Source: Paramecium tetraurelia (taxonomy: Eukaryota). From it: a stretch of DNA of 64,000 bases. Below the pieces are notes generated by a model. That model made no database searches, was not told the origin of the DNA, and saw nothing but the letters and a program-made list of their open reading frames with translations. The first letter of the stretch is position 1. Each line of letters opens with the position of its first letter. Below, in pieces: positions 17,532 to 23,037 of the stretch. The DNA lies in contig CT868024.1 in the NCBI GenBank assembly GCA_000165425.1, forward strand, positions 62,001 through 126,000. The letters run 5' to 3'. Position numbers and translations under genes: made by a program.

Positions 17532-20408
17532 TCAATATCTGGATAACTATTGTCTAAATTTCGATTTTTCAATGACTGTCAAAAGATGAGTTGCATGTCT
17601 TGAAGTCTTTTTGGGCTTCTTTGCTTTCATTAAAACAATATCCAAATTGAATTACGGAAAGTAATTCTAAGTATTTTAGCATTTATCCACATCAAAATCT
17701 ATTCTTTATAGAGGATTATAGGTTATTTCATCTAATTTATTATTTTCTTAAATTACAGGTATTGAAATTTATCTCAATTCCGAATTTGATTTATTTTATG
17801 AAGATTAGAGAAGTTACGGTAATTTTTAATCAACATTCTAAAAAGTAGAAGAATTTCCTTTTCTTATTTTATTTGCAAGGCCATTATGATGCAATTCCTA
17901 ACTGGTCTATATTATTTATTATGGCTAGATCTGGCCAGTAAAAGAACTTGAAGATGACGAATTTTGTTAGGATGATTAACCCTGATTAGATAAATCTTAG
18001 GACAATAACGACACACTACTCCCTCGTAAGGTTTGAACCTATTATAATTAGGCTAAGGTTCTTCTGTTGGCTCTCATAGTTAAAAATTTGGAAGCCCATT
18101 CAGTAGCTTCTCCATGATCTGAATAATCAGGTGACATTTATATAAACTAAATTTTCTAATCGATTGTAGAGCATTTCGGTAAGTTCTTAAGGCCTGCCTA
18201 ATTCTCATCATTTTCTGATTCGTATTTAATAGATTTTAGAGTATTACTTTTCACACTTAACAACGTTTCAATCACATGATCATATTATTTAATATATCCT
18301 AATGAGTTTAGATACTAATCAGTTAAGTCTTCCAAACATATAATATTATTATCTACTATTTATTAGAGAGCAGTTTATTGTATAAGCGATAAGTTGAATC
18401 GTATCTTTCCAGTGACAATTCTATTGAATCTATGTCTTTGATTACTCTCATTAATCATGAACTGTTTTCTCAATTTTCTAAGGTTTGCAATATAGAATAC
18501 GAAAGGACATTTCATAAACTAGTGAGTCCATCTACATATGTAACAAACCTCTCCATAGTTCTGTTTCTCCTCATTAAATTACATCTCATCCTTTAACATT
18601 TAATAATTCTCTTCCTCTCTTGGATCTTCTTTTATGATATTTAAAAAGTCTTCATATTCAATATAAACTATCTGACAGAATTTGGTTGTCCTTATAGAAT
18701 AATCATATTGAGTCTACATGATGAATTCCTTCTCTCCAATAAATTTACCAGCATCTATGATGGCTAATTAGGTTTCTCTATTGGCTTAATCACAAATCAG
18801 GTTAATTTATCCTTTCTGCAAAAAGAACAGTTTATTAGCCAATTCATTCTGAGTCTCAACAATCTCTTCAGGAGCAAATCTTTTCTCTCTCACAAAAGAA
18901 CACAACTTTTTCACACTCTTCTCAGATAATGTATTTTTAATAAGTCTTGAACTCATTAAGATATTGTGATATAGATCAATCGCAACCTATTCCTTTAATC
19001 TTTTATTTAATGCTTTCATCATGTTCTCTCCAAACTCATTGTTCTCATCTTGCATTTTCAAGTAATATTCAAAATACTTTCTTACTTGCAAAATCAATTA
19101 CTTACTTAATTATCTCTTTTTTACATAATTATTTAATTACATCATCTTTTACTTATAAATTTACTCCTTCTCTGTCAATTACCTCAGTATATTACCTATG
19201 CTGGATATTGTGTATCCAAATAATCCACAAATGACCATTGCCATCAGTATAACGAATGTCCTCTCAAGATCAGTCTATGGAACTATGTCTCCATATCCCA
19301 CGGTTAACGTTGTAATTGTACTAAAGTATAGTGAATGAATATATCTTGATTCCCATGAGGCATCCACTATGCCCTTTGAATCCAACCAAGAATATTTCCC
19401 TCCATCTAATTGTATCTATCCTATCAAGTTCCATAAACAAGCACAACAATGAGACACAAACAATAACAAAAACACTGATTTAAATAATTCCATCACCGTT
19501 TACATTGTAATCGAAGGGTTTATTGCTTCCTCTAGTTAATCTATCAAGTTCTTTACTTTTGCCATCCTCAACATCAAAATATACTCAATGTCTGGAATAC
19601 TAAAGAATGATAAAATGAATGGGATTATAAATAATAAATCCCACCAAAACTTCGATTTTGCATAATTCCTAAATATATCCTTATGACTTTTATGGATCTA
19701 TCCTTTACTGTAATACGCAGTGAAGAAATTTATGATAATGTCTATTATAAATGTCCAAGAAGGCATAGATTCAAAAAACAATTATTTCATCGTTTTATCG
19801 TTATTAAAACCAAATCCTAATTTCATGGGGATATAAAAAATACTCAAGATAATTTATACTAATAGAAATATATCCCATATCATCTTAAAATTTGAATCAG
19901 GATCTATAATGGGAAGGTGACTCAAAGTCCCTTTCAAACCATAAATTATAGTTGAAATTTTATTCAGATTTTTTTGCAATAAAACATCCGAATCACTTGC
20001 AGAATCCGAAATCAACATCAGAATGTCCGCATTTAAAGATTTAAATTTGACTTGGGTGGAATGGTTTTTCATTTATTTCACGAATTTAGTCAAGAAGAAC
20101 ATTATACTGAGCCCCTAAATTGCCCAATTCTTATTGCTTTTCTTTATCAGCTAATCTTGGTTACTATCTAAATCAAGAGGAATCTTGGTTTCCCTCTTAA
20201 TGTTAGGTATCTCAAATACACTTTACTCTAATTTTTAATCAGAACTAATATTAGGTTCAAAAGAAGCCTCCTCACTATTGTTTTCACATTAAGGCATTGA
20301 AAAATCAGATCGAATATTGGCAGATTGCTTAATTGCAGGGCTAAATCAAACTCAGAATTGGTACATATATTAGGATCTATTAGAATAAGAATTCATTATG
20401 TCCAACAT
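17532..20408 (-). CDS. Voltage-gated K+ channel with cyclic-nucleotide-binding domain (EAG/HCN-like)
   Basis: PDSNFKMIWDIFLL (S1), pore TITTLTVGYGDIVP, CNBD with GKFIGEKEFI; C-terminal YFPQFN. Confidence 0.92.
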
Positions 20409-21630
20409 CTTATTTGACAAGATATTTAAATGTTATATTTTAAACTTTAATTATTTATATGCAAATAATAATTACATTTATCAATCTGAATTAAGCCTAT
20501 TGAATTATGATATGATGATTTATTATTCATAACATAAATATTAATTATTACTTAAACTGATTTCCAAAATAAGTATTCAGTTAAAGACATTTATAAAGTA
20601 TTACTTTTCTCTAACACTAAATTATCATCTTAGGATAATAGTAAATATAAAAACTCACCAAGGGTATTTTAGTAATAATTATAATTCTTCCAAATTGTAT
20701 TTTAATTATAAATTGGTTTATTATAAATTCAGAATCTTAAAGTTTCTAAATAAGTCAAATTTAATTATTTCATTTATTTTGATACATCTTCCTTCAAAAT
20801 ATTAAGCTTTGTATTTTAAAATTTTTAAACACAAAGTTTTAGCTAATTTAATTATAAGAAAGTAATTGTGAAACTGATAGATTTTCATACAGAGTTTTGA
20901 TTCGAGAATTCGGTGCTAAATTTAAATTAAAATTAATTCTTTTAACAAAACTCAAGTATACACTTTTTGCAGTTGATATTATTTAATTAATTTTTCAAAA
21001 TAGAAAGAATACCTGAATTTTAAGATTTTTTGATAATTTATTTTATATCAATAATGCAAGGATTAAATATATAAAAAAGATGATTATTAGCATGGAGAAC
21101 ATTGAATGATAAATAATTTCTTCTCAAACATTTTTAATATCAATTACTTCTAATCTTTTCAATTCTAAATAGAGTATTAAAGAATTTCAAATCAATTAAC
21201 TTGTATAGCCCTTTGATATTTATATTAATGAAAGATTTACTTTTGAAATAATATAATCACATTTCTCTTATATTAATTTAGCATAGCTTATTTAAAAAAG
21301 AATATAAGATTATAATAAGACACCTAATTAAATGGAACTTAATTTTTTTTGGTTCAGAATATCTTTGAGATTAAATTTAATCTTAGATTTAATTATATTT
21401 AAGAAATAAAAAAGCTGAATAAAAGTGTACTAAAAATGAAGAAGATAATTAAAATGATTTCAATGAATTTTTGATGAAATTAAAGTTAGATAAACAAATT
21501 TTTGAGAGATTTATGAATGAGACAATAAATTTAAGAAAATACTATATTCTACAATTATTAAGCAGTTGCATTAATTATGCTTATGAATTTATATAATTTA
21601 ATATTTTAAATAATAAAATAATTTTTAATT

Positions 21631-21697
21631 ATGATGAACTCAACAATATTAAGCTAATATGATCATTCTATGATTATAGATATTGGAGCTGATCTGA
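21631..21697 (+). ncRNA. Box C/D snoRNA with SSU rRNA guide UAUUGGAGCUG (copy A)
   Basis: C box ATGATGA at 21631, D box CTGA at 21694; guide is complementary to conserved SSU CAGCUCCAAUA. Confidence 0.75.
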
Positions 21698-21720
21698 TAT
21701 GGTGTATTAAATTATATTAA

Positions 21721-21783
21721 ATGATGATTTGATTATTTTATTGCTGATGCAGGTAGTGACTAAAATTTATTGGAGCTGTCTGA
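21721..21783 (+). ncRNA. Box C/D snoRNA with SSU rRNA guide UAUUGGAGCUG (copy B)
   Basis: C box ATGATGA at 21721, D' CTGA at 21744, D box CTGA at 21780; same 11-nt guide as copy A. Confidence 0.8.
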
Positions 21784-21840
21784 CATCATATTAAATAATC
21801 AAACCCATATTTTAATACAATACTATTATAGTAAATTATA

Positions 21841-21893
21841 TAAGATAAAATGGCTTCTTTATTATAATGAAGAATTTATCATAGTTAAACTAA
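21841..21893 (+). pseudogene. Degenerate U46/snR63-like C/D snoRNA
   Basis: TCATAGTTA followed by AA and CTAA resembles the U46 3' end UCAUAGUUACACUGA (LSU target UAACUAUGA); both boxes are decayed. Confidence 0.4.
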
Positions 21894-21915
21894 TAATGGA
21901 TATAAATATTATATA

Positions 21916-22001
21916 ATGATGAAACGATGACGAGTATGAAGGAATCGATAGACATCCATCTATTGTTCCTGCATCAATGATTATTTGAGGCATTTGTCTG
22001 A
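21916..22001 (+). ncRNA. SNORD15: U15 (SNORD15/snR75-like) box C/D snoRNA
   Basis: C box, then GATGACGAG, an internal hairpin and GAGGCATTTGT-CTGA; both guides match U15 and pair with LSU CAAAUGCCUCGUCAUC. Confidence 0.9.
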
Positions 22002-22024
22002 ACAATATTGAAAAGTATGAATTA

Positions 22025-22082
22025 ATGAAGATATATATGCCGCCCCAGTCTTAACGACTCTGATGATACGGCTCATGACAGA
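22025..22082 (+). ncRNA. SNORD31: U31 (SNORD31/snR67-like) box C/D snoRNA
   Basis: ATGAAGA C box, guide TGCCGCCCCAGT pairing with LSU CUGGGGCGGCA, C' TGATGA; terminal D box is non-canonical (ATGA or CAGA). Confidence 0.75.
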
Positions 22083-22105
22083 TTTATTATTATAGTTATA
22101 TTAAA

Positions 22106-22167
22106 GTGATGTAAAAATATTTGCTACTCTTGAAATAGCATGATGAGACAACCACCAAGATCTCTGA
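22106..22167 (+). ncRNA. SNORD24: U24 (SNORD24/snR24) box C/D snoRNA
   Basis: GTGATGTAAAAATATTTGCTA...TGATGA...ACCACCAAGATCTCTGA, colinear with U24 across both guides. Confidence 0.92.
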
Positions 22168-22196
22168 TTCATAATAATATTATATATATATACATA

Positions 22197-22253
22197 GTGA
22201 TGATTTTGTAGTCCATGATTTAATCATGATTTCAATCTTTCGCTCCTATCTGA
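22197..22253 (+). ncRNA. U80/snR60-like box C/D snoRNA
   Basis: GTGATGA C box; TCTTTCGCTCCTAT-CTGA guide pairing with LSU AUAGGGGCGAAAGA. Confidence 0.88.
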
Positions 22254-22282
22254 TACACATAAATTACAATTATATATATATA

Positions 22283-22345
22283 ATGATGACAATTAAGTAC
22301 TAGAGTCTATGACTTCAATATGAACTACAACCCTTGGCTGTCTGA
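22283..22345 (+). ncRNA. Double-guide C/D snoRNA with U52-like D' guide and U53-like D guide
   Basis: ATGATGA; ACTAGAGTC (pairs with LSU GACUCUAG) before ATGA; CCCTTGGCTGT-CTGA (pairs with LSU ACAGCCAAGGG). Confidence 0.85.
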
Positions 22346-22371
22346 AATAAAATAGCTTTATATATATATAT

Positions 22372-22432
22372 ATGATGATAACTGACACCTCTTGATTGAG
22401 CCTATTGGCATTGATCGGAATTCACTGTCTGA
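22372..22432 (+). ncRNA. U60/snR48-like box C/D snoRNA
   Basis: ATGATGA; CTGACACCTCT (pairs with LSU AGAGGUGUCAG) before the D' box; CTGA D box at 22429. Confidence 0.8.
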
Positions 22433-22773
22433 ACTCTTTTTGTGACAGTCTTTCAAATTTAAATCGGCAGACAAGTATGAGAACTAATAAGGGAGATAAT
22501 ATTAATAATATTGATTGATTCAAAAAAGAAGATAAATAAGATAGTTGCTATATTATATGTTTGAGAGATCTGATATATAATATTAATTTTTACAAATCTC
22601 CTGTTTAACAACAAGCATAAATCCATAGGATCACGAATTAAGGTGTAATTTAGATTTCCGTTAATATAAAAAAGCAAGCTGAATCAAAAACGACATAGAT
22701 GAATTAAAATAATTTGATTAAAGTATTGAATCAAAATGAAGACATTTGATCAAACAGGTAAGAGTAATGATGT

Positions 22774-23019
22774 TCAGAATGTGGAACAGCAGGTTTTCGC
22801 TGATTCCTCTGTTAACTAATTATATCTTTTCCAATTTTCAACAACATGAATATCTGCAATTGTCTTTCCTTTTTGACATTCATCTCTAAAAACCACTCTA
22901 TGCACTTTCGTTTTCTTCAATATCGGTATATAAAATTTGTCTAATCTAATTTATACTTTGTTTGCTGCAGTTGGTTCTGTATTGTAAGTATCATCTGGAT
23001 TATTTAGTTTAGATTACAT
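22774..23019 (-). CDS. Small RVxF/VENWKRYN/CaaX protein (family member 3)
   Basis: 81 aa, intronless: ...RLDKFYIPILKKTKVHRVVFRDE...IHVVENWKRYN...KTCCSTF*. Confidence 0.85.
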
Positions 23020-23037
23020 TAAAAAATAAAATAAAAT

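What the first reader, a model, noticed from the sequence alone, without database searches (positions are those of the whole stretch)
21631..22432. Intergenic cluster of eight box C/D snoRNAs plus one relic
Seen: eight same-strand 57-86 nt units within 800 bp, each running from a C box to a D box and separated by short AT spacers. Known: from memory, the guides match U15, U31, U24, U80/snR60, U52/U53 and U60 families and pair with conserved rRNA segments. Inference: a polycistronic snoRNA locus. Host introns of about 25 nt are too small to carry snoRNAs, so some other transcription and processing route must exist.
Basis: partly seen in the sequence, partly recalled or inferred. Interest (0 to 1): 0.75.

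Follow-up and report, generated by a model that had tools for sequence, protein, structure and literature searches.

The report
Compact ciliate snoRNA operon
Eight small guide RNA genes (box C/D snoRNAs) lie within 800 bases; the five tested are made as discrete small RNAs, six are likely cut from one transcript to guide ribosomal RNA methylation, and the arrangement is an ordinary, already described kind.

Summary
Confirmed and ordinary. Eight plus-strand C-box to D-box units of 57-86 nt lie at 21631-22432; 0 of 2000 shuffles come close. Rfam passes one (SNORD24); others hit U15, U31, snR60 and Tetrahymena TtnuCD10/11/13/15/16 weakly. Each unit has a 10-14 bp guide against rRNA of other ciliates; this genome's rDNA is not in the assembly. 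Small-RNA reads show units 1-5 as discrete plus-strand RNAs, with mapped ends 4 nt before box C and up to 2 nt after box D; the relic gives none. Correction: an snRNA-type promoter element (USE) sits inside the array, 66 nt before the relic, and is kept in all four genome-duplication copies. The likely operon is relic plus units 3-8; units 1-2 lie upstream of it. The relic is an snR61-like gene, intact in older copies. Seven members follow the order of Tetrahymena cluster 5, with spacers cut to 23-29 nt. Clustered, USE-driven snoRNAs are already reported for Paramecium (Chen 2009, seen only as cited). Polymerase and processing nuclease remain open.

The parts
21631..21697 (+). Unit 1: box C/D snoRNA upstream of the USE; D guide pairs 11 bp with the SSU rRNA helix-18 region, starting 3 nt from box D; D' guide has no target found
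   Evidence: 9 of 11 rDNA loci; 0 of 30 shuffles; small-RNA depth about 1500, window and L002 alleles near 1:1; 64/67 identical in L002, absent from L003/L004
21721..21783 (+). Unit 2: box C/D snoRNA with the same 11-nt SSU guide as unit 1, set 1 nt closer to box D; weakly expressed and likely decaying
   Evidence: depth about 30; 50/63 identical in L002 with altered guide and D box
21800..21813 (+). USE/PSE-type promoter element; start of transcription predicted about 63-68 nt downstream
   Evidence: 14-mer exact in all 4 cluster copies, 7 matches in the genome against 0 for the reversed control; same core 63-68 nt before 4 of 4 U6/U2 genes measured; matches the published ciliate USE (PMC3273799)
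21867..21911 (+). Relic of an snR61-like snoRNA (counterpart of TtnuCD8): C box kept, guide and D box lost; no small RNA
   Evidence: C box 66 nt after the USE, against 65 nt for the intact unit in L003 and L004; Rfam snR61 hits there, E 0.31 and 0.06; depth 0
21916..22001 (+). Unit 3: U15-type snoRNA (TtnuCD10, Plasmodium snoR21), two LSU guides
   Evidence: Rfam E 7.5e-09 snoR21, 0.0086 SNORD15, under cut-offs; guides in 10 and 11 of 11 loci; 5' end 21912, depth about 10,000
22025..22082 (+). Unit 4: U31-type snoRNA (TtnuCD11), D' guide to LSU; variant D box
   Evidence: Rfam DdR13 E 6.6e-04, SNORD31 E 0.055; 13-bp duplex in 11 of 11 loci; ends 22021 and 22084
22106..22167 (+). Unit 5: U24 snoRNA (TtnuCD12), two adjacent LSU guides
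   Evidence: Rfam SNORD24 55.3 bits, cut-off 41; 13-bp duplexes; 5' end 22102, 3' ends 22167-22169, depth about 118,000
22197..22253 (+). Unit 6: snR60-type snoRNA (TtnuCD13), D guide to LSU; conserved D' segment without a target found
   Evidence: Rfam snR60_Z15 E 0.16, TtnuCD13 E 0.73; median 14-bp duplex; 54/57 identical in L003; expression not tested
22283..22345 (+). Unit 7: TtnuCD15/snoZ157-type snoRNA, two LSU guides
   Evidence: Rfam E 0.07 and 0.024; D guide 11 bp in 11 of 11 loci; expression not tested
22372..22432 (+). Unit 8: TtnuCD16-type snoRNA, D' guide to LSU
   Evidence: Rfam TtnuCD16 E 1.2e-05; 10-bp duplex in 10 of 11 loci; kept in all 4 copies; expression not tested
22437..22441 (+). 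T5 run after the last D box, candidate transcription end
   Evidence: T5, T6, T6, T7 within 5 nt of the last D box in the 4 copies; none of 5 or more inside the 3 intact copies

Best explanation
This is an intergenic cluster of eight box C/D snoRNA genes in a Paramecium-type ciliate, of which units 3-8 are likely cut from one ~580-nt transcript started by an internal snRNA-type promoter and are predicted to guide 2'-O-methylation of rRNA. Shown: the units, their rRNA-complementary guides, discrete small RNAs for units 1-5, the conserved USE and end T-run, and sparse same-strand reads over two spacers. Inferred: transcription starts 63-68 nt after the USE (at the relic's C box) and ends at the T-run; snoRNP proteins bind each C/D pair, the AU-rich spacers are cut and trimmed to 4 nt before box C and 2 nt after box D; Pol III is slightly favoured over Pol II. 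Units 1-2 are a separate upstream pair without a USE, likely transcribed from an upstream start that may read on into the operon. After genome duplications the copies lost different members: the window and L002 lost the snR61-like first gene, L004 kept it and lost most others.
For: Chance test. Rfam. 9 of 17 guide positions give median duplexes of 11-14 bp across 11 ciliate rDNA loci, reached by 0-1 of 30 shuffles; every unit has one (unit 8 box corrected: 10 bp in 10 of 11). Small-RNA run X24: 134,932 reads laid, all on +, with near-zero depth over USE and relic and 5' ends at C-4. Oligo-dT runs X21, X22: 18 reads, all with first mate on minus, covering relic and the spacers after units 3 and 4. 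USE geometry equal to U6/U2 genes and no second USE in the array. Units 3-8 are 74-95% identical in L003, four of their five spacers only 43-57%. Spacers after units 5 and 6 contain neither GT nor AG. Seven members in the order of Tetrahymena cluster 5.
Against: Guides were tested on other ciliates' rRNA only (no rDNA found in G000). Only 1 of 8 units passes an Rfam cut-off. One oligo-dT read starts near 21834, before the predicted start. The USE precedes both U6 and U2 genes, and U2 genes are also followed by T5, so neither signal identifies the polymerase; 285 of 2000 shuffles also lack an internal T5. Flanking stems beat shuffles for 1 of 6 units only.
Confidence: 0.8

Rival explanations
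1. All eight snoRNAs come from one longer transcript that starts upstream of unit 1; the internal USE is secondary.
For: No T5 and no USE-like match found around units 1-2; one oligo-dT read begins upstream of the predicted USE start; a 551-nt contig of run X3 spans units 1-5.
Against: The USE is invariant in 4 of 4 copies at a fixed distance from the first C box, including copies without units 1-2; units 1-2 have no oligo-dT reads; the X3 contig mixes window and L002 alleles and may contain DNA.
Confidence: 0.1
2. The snoRNAs sit in introns of a spliced non-coding carrier transcript, as proposed for the Oxytricha arrays.
For: Oxytricha C/D arrays appear intronic (PMC3177221 section 27); some ~80-nt Paramecium introns hold snoRNAs.
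Against: Two window spacers have neither GT nor AG, one has AG only; the GT before unit 4 is lost in L002, whose allele is expressed; four of the L003 spacers listed lack both; no joints in the laid reads, at low depth.
Confidence: 0.03
3. Each snoRNA has its own minimal promoter and terminator.
For: In Tetrahymena 11 of 19 clustered snoRNAs have a putative USE; abundances here differ about 45-fold among units 3-5.
Against: Spacers of 23-29 nt cannot hold the 63-68 nt USE-to-start distance; only one USE in the array; reads cross spacers. Abundance differences can reflect stability and library bias.
Confidence: 0.05

Closest known systems
Tetrahymena thermophila snoRNA cluster 5 (TtnuCD7-16; PMC3273799)
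   Same: Seven members with the same guides in the same order: CD8 (relic here, intact in L003/L004), CD10/U15, CD11, CD12/U24, CD13, CD15, CD16; intergenic; USE motif
   Different: CD7, CD9 and CD14 are missing here; spacers 23-29 nt against 169-421 nt in Tetrahymena clusters; one USE for the array rather than several; extra upstream pair (units 1-2)
Clustered snoRNA genes of Paramecium tetraurelia (Chen et al. 2009, RNA 15:503; seen only as cited in PMC3273799 and PMC3177221)
   Same: Same kind of genome; USE/PSE promoter; Pol III implicated for clustered snoRNAs
   Different: Could not check whether this locus, its relic or units 1-2 are in their list
Polycistronic box C/D snoRNA genes of budding yeast and plants (recalled; general picture also in PMC3273799)
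   Same: One promoter, several C/D snoRNAs released by cleavage and trimming
   Different: Yeast clusters are Pol II transcripts cut by RNase III at spacer stems (recalled); no consistent flanking stems were found here
Oxytricha C/D snoRNA arrays (PMC3177221)
   Same: Large ciliate arrays of C/D snoRNAs
   Different: Those appear intronic in a carrier RNA; these spacers lack conserved splice sites

Membership tests
Box C/D methylation-guide snoRNA | Box C near the 5' end and box D near the 3' end, 50-150 nt | tested here: met
   8 units of 57-86 nt; 7 with exact CTGA, unit 4 with CAGA
Box C/D methylation-guide snoRNA | 10-21 nt antisense element next to box D or D', pairing with rRNA | tested here: met
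   At least one 10-14 bp guide per unit on surrogate ciliate rDNA; unit 1's duplex starts 3 nt from box D and is marginal
Box C/D methylation-guide snoRNA | Complementarity to this organism's own rRNA | not testable with these tools
   No rDNA match in G000
Box C/D methylation-guide snoRNA | Accumulates as a discrete RNA with ends 4-5 nt before C and 2-3 nt after D | tested here: met
Box C/D methylation-guide snoRNA | Binds fibrillarin snoRNP and directs 2'-O-methylation | not testable with these tools
   needs immunoprecipitation and RiboMeth-seq
Rfam SNORD24 | Score over the gathering threshold | tested here: met
   55.3 bits against 41
Rfam SNORD15, SNORD31, snR60_Z15, TtnuCD10/11/13/15/16 | Score over the gathering threshold | tested here: not met
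   All under cut-off, E 1.2e-05 to 2.7; kinship rests on shared guides and order, so filed as '-type', not as Rfam members
   Not among the 32 matches listed (6 same-clan overlaps were not shown)
Polycistronic intergenic snoRNA gene | One promoter and one end for several snoRNAs | tested here: met
   Single USE before the relic and T-run after unit 8 in 4 of 4 copies; sequence evidence only, and it covers units 3-8, not 1-2
Polycistronic intergenic snoRNA gene | Precursor RNA spanning the spacers | tested here: inconclusive
   18 same-orientation oligo-dT reads, depth 1-2 over two spacers
Polycistronic intergenic snoRNA gene | Not inside an intron or coding gene | tested here: met
   Flanked by a minus-strand channel gene and a gene relic upstream, a minus-strand ORF and a DUF1232 gene downstream; no conserved splice sites
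Pol III-transcribed snoRNA cluster | Pol III promoter and oligo-T terminator | tested here: inconclusive
   USE and T5 occur at both U6 and U2 genes here; internal T5 absence has P about 0.14

The most novel reading that the evidence does not exclude
An ancient snoRNA operon whose gene order has survived since Paramecium and Tetrahymena split, compacted in Paramecium into a single Pol III polycistron processed without RNase III stems, partitioned among genome-duplication copies by reciprocal gene loss, and extended by a lineage-specific tandem pair whose 1-nt guide shift targets two adjacent, otherwise unreported SSU rRNA nucleotides.
Probability: 0.25. Interest if true: 0.45.

Novelty: already known. 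Interest (0 to 1): 0.24.

Why it matters
Mostly as annotation and as a tidy test object. The kind of locus is known in ciliates. What it offers: a single-promoter, 580-nt array in a tractable organism in which to settle which polymerase makes clustered ciliate snoRNAs and which nuclease separates them, a question left open in PMC3273799; a case of conserved snoRNA gene order between Paramecium and Tetrahymena, which I did not find stated in the papers I could see; and a clear example of reciprocal loss of non-coding genes after whole-genome duplication.

Tried and rejected
[quoted passage not shown] Guides without a target: D' of units 1, 2 and 6 and D of units 4 and 8 did not beat shuffles on rRNA (4-30 of 30 shuffles reach them) and pair at most 7 bp with this genome's U6 or U2; tRNA targets were not tested (no tRNA in the window). 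The 9-bp D' guides of units 3 and 7 hit conserved LSU sites but do not beat shuffles alone (5 and 6 of 30). The unit 8 D' box was set one base off and redone. External stems as RNase III signals: only unit 7 (2 of 200 shuffles), others 25-121 of 200. The other three genome matches of the 14-nt USE variant (L105-L107) have no convincing Rfam RNA (1 hit, E 1.4). No degenerate USE in the 300 nt examined upstream of unit 1 in window or L002. No RNA holder was listed as such by the run search. The X3 contig is chimeric between paralogs and was not counted as evidence of one transcript. Earlier findings of this scan: none. Chen et al. 2009 is not held.

Full report
Setting. The genome held for this window has 72.09 Mb in 697 contigs and long frames open under the ciliate code; that this fits the Paramecium tetraurelia macronuclear assembly is my recall, not a tool result. 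The finding lies between a minus-strand cyclic-nucleotide-gated channel gene ending at 20345 and, downstream, a small minus-strand ORF and a DUF1232 gene.

Observation. Eight C-to-D units are present at 21631-21697, 21721-21783, 21916-22001, 22025-22082, 22106-22167, 22197-22253, 22283-22345 and 22372-22432. A strict box rule finds 7 in 802 nt; 0 of 2000 dinucleotide shuffles reach 6, and no other 810-nt stretch of the window has more than 3. In the whole window Rfam passes one match, SNORD24 at unit 5 (55.3 bits, cut-off 41). At a loose threshold, 28 of 32 matches in 21400-22600 are C/D snoRNA families, 27 of them on the + strand; the best are Plasmodium snoR21 and SNORD15 (unit 3), DdR13 and SNORD31 (unit 4), snR60_Z15 and TtnuCD13 (unit 6), TtnuCD15 and snoZ157 (unit 7) and TtnuCD16 (unit 8). 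Units 1 and 2 have chance-level hits only (E 4.6-9.5).

Guides. The assembly yields no rDNA, so I fetched rDNA loci from metagenomes with a ciliate SSU primer (89 loci, 80 listed) and used the 11 that reach the 3' half of the LSU. Of 17 guide positions tested, 9 give median duplexes of 11-14 bp that 0-1 of 30 shuffled guides reach, at least one per unit (unit 8 redone with the right box: 10 bp in 10 of 11 loci). Two more (D' of units 3 and 7) hit conserved LSU sites with 9 bp but do not beat shuffles. Six positions have no target on rRNA; five such guides also have none on this genome's U6 or U2. Units 1 and 2 share one 11-nt guide against the SSU helix-18 region (exact target in 41 of 60 loci that cover it); by the fifth-nucleotide rule they point to adjacent nucleotides, a G and the next C. 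This guide-plus-box pattern occurs three times in the genome, at this locus and its closest paralog only.

Expression. Reads were laid on 21640-22175 only. Small-RNA run X24 gave 134,932 reads, all on +: depth about 1500 on unit 1, 30 on unit 2, 0 over the USE and relic, 10,000 on unit 3, 2600 on unit 4 and 118,000 on unit 5. Starts pile up at 21912, 22021 and 22102, each 4 nt before a C box; ends at 22084 and 22167-22169, up to 2 nt after a D box. Variant letters show that window and L002 copies are both expressed (743 of 1542 reads carry the L002 letter in unit 1) and that the L003 copy of unit 4 is too (566 reads with its 5' end). Two oligo-dT runs gave 3 and 15 reads, all with the first mate on minus, which in most stranded libraries means plus-strand RNA; they cover the relic and the spacers after units 3 and 4 at depth 1-2. 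That fits a precursor but is thin. One read starts near 21834, upstream of the predicted start. A contig of run X3 spans units 1-5 but carries window letters in its 5' half and L002 letters in its 3' half, so I do not count it. Units 6-8 were not tested.

Promoter and end. A 14-nt element at 21800-21813 is exact in all four copies of the cluster; the genome has 7 exact matches against 0 for the reversed control, and the other three show no convincing RNA gene. Its core is the ciliate USE reported for Tetrahymena snRNA and snoRNA genes and for Paramecium ncRNA genes (PMC3273799). In this genome it stands 63-68 nt before the 4 U6 and U2 genes measured, and 65-66 nt before the first C box of the cluster in the window, L003 and L004. 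That places the start at the relic. A T5-T7 run follows the last D box in 4 of 4 copies, and no run of 5 or more T lies inside the three intact copies. Against over-reading: 285 of 2000 shuffles also lack an internal T5, and U2 genes share both the USE and a downstream T5, so Pol III is not shown. No USE-like match was found upstream of unit 1. In L002 a 422-codon plus-strand ORF ends about 45 nt before unit 1; the window keeps only a 96-nt, 71% alike remnant of its end, yet expresses unit 1 equally, so unit 1 does not need that intact gene.

Paralogs. Four copies exist: the window, L002 (91%), L003 (81% over query 294-833) and L004 (76% over 707-833). In L003 units 3-8 are 74-95% identical to the window and four of five spacers 43-57%; the last spacer, a TA run, is 85%. 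L003 and L004 carry an intact snR61-like unit right after the USE (Rfam E 0.31 and 0.06; 11-bp LSU duplex for the L003 guide, 0 of 30 shuffles), which identifies the relic. L004 has lost or damaged most other members. Units 1-2 are found only in the window and L002; unit 2 has drifted in L002 (50/63).

Comparison with Tetrahymena. Cluster 5 of PMC3273799 holds TtnuCD7-16 (supplement Table S4). Reading its printed sequences against this locus by eye, CD8 matches the snR61-like unit, CD10 unit 3, CD11 unit 4, CD12 unit 5, CD13 unit 6, CD15 unit 7 and CD16 unit 8, guide for guide and in the same order (1 in 5040 for seven shuffled items); CD7, CD9 and CD14 have no counterpart here. Rfam hits for CD10, 11, 13, 15 and 16 agree. 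Tetrahymena clusters have 169-421 nt spacers and often several USEs; this one has 23-29 nt spacers and one USE.

Mechanism. Most likely the USE starts one transcript of about 580 nt that ends at the T-run; core snoRNP proteins protect each C/D pair, and spacers are cut and trimmed (inferred from established snoRNA biogenesis and the read ends). An intronic carrier, as in Oxytricha (PMC3177221), is unlikely: two spacers lack both GT and AG and the one GT that looks like a donor is lost in the expressed L002 copy. Individual promoters do not fit in the spacers. RNase III-type flanking stems are supported for 1 of 6 units only.

Literature seen. PMC3273799: passages, sections 12 and 21, supplement file 2 parts 2, 3, 5, 6 (file 1 could not be searched). 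PMC3177221: passages and section 27. PMC6735861 and PMC5485702: passages (142 annotated snoRNAs in this species; a handful of ~80-nt introns with snoRNAs). Chen et al. 2009: nothing seen directly; it and its supplement bear directly on whether this locus is already annotated and on the Pol III claim, which I know only through PMC3273799. Six paper searches (listings only, apart from the four papers named) showed no paper stating the Paramecium-Tetrahymena order conservation or a Paramecium rRNA methylation map; most subscription journals are not in that library.

Verdict. A real, expressed snoRNA cluster of a kind already described in this genus and, member for member, in Tetrahymena. Interest 0.24.

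Noticed in passing
window, between the channel gene (ends 20345) and unit 1; L002:217-1482: The window keeps only a ~96-nt, 71% alike remnant of a 422-codon plus-strand ORF that is intact in L002 and has a 34% alike relative upstream of L003; no Pfam family. A likely pseudogene after the recent genome duplication.
   Followed up: partly
just upstream of unit 1, window and L002: About 50 AT-rich bases are almost identical in the two copies although the neighbouring gene remnant has diverged; a candidate non-USE promoter or processing element for units 1-2.
   Followed up: partly
window 22168-22196, 22254-22282, 22346-22371; also L002, L003, L004: (TA)n runs sit directly before several C boxes; 3 of the window's 8 runs of five or more TA lie in this 580-nt array. 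Possible cleavage or spacing signal.
   Followed up: partly
window 22204-22214 (unit 6 D' segment): Identical in window, L002 and L003 but without a target on surrogate rRNA, U6 or U2; may pair with a Paramecium-specific rRNA segment or a tRNA (the Tetrahymena counterpart was predicted to target tRNA).
   Followed up: partly
L004 (G000:C690, about 204150-204550, minus strand): Oldest-looking cluster copy: USE and snR61-like unit intact, unit 8 counterpart partly kept, U15, U31 and snR60 counterparts gone, with an internal T6.
   Followed up: partly
window 22774-23022, minus strand: An 82-codon ORF conserved in L002, convergent on the cluster; no Pfam family.
   Followed up: partly
window 197, 3861, 44459 (+) and 34807, 27138 (-): Other 8-nt USE core matches in the window; not examined for downstream RNA genes beyond the whole-window Rfam scan, which found none.
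   Followed up: no
L096-L102: Three U6 and four U2 genes of this genome share the USE at 63-68 nt (4 measured) and a TATA-like box about 34 nt after it, so promoter layout alone does not separate Pol II from Pol III genes here.
   Followed up: partly
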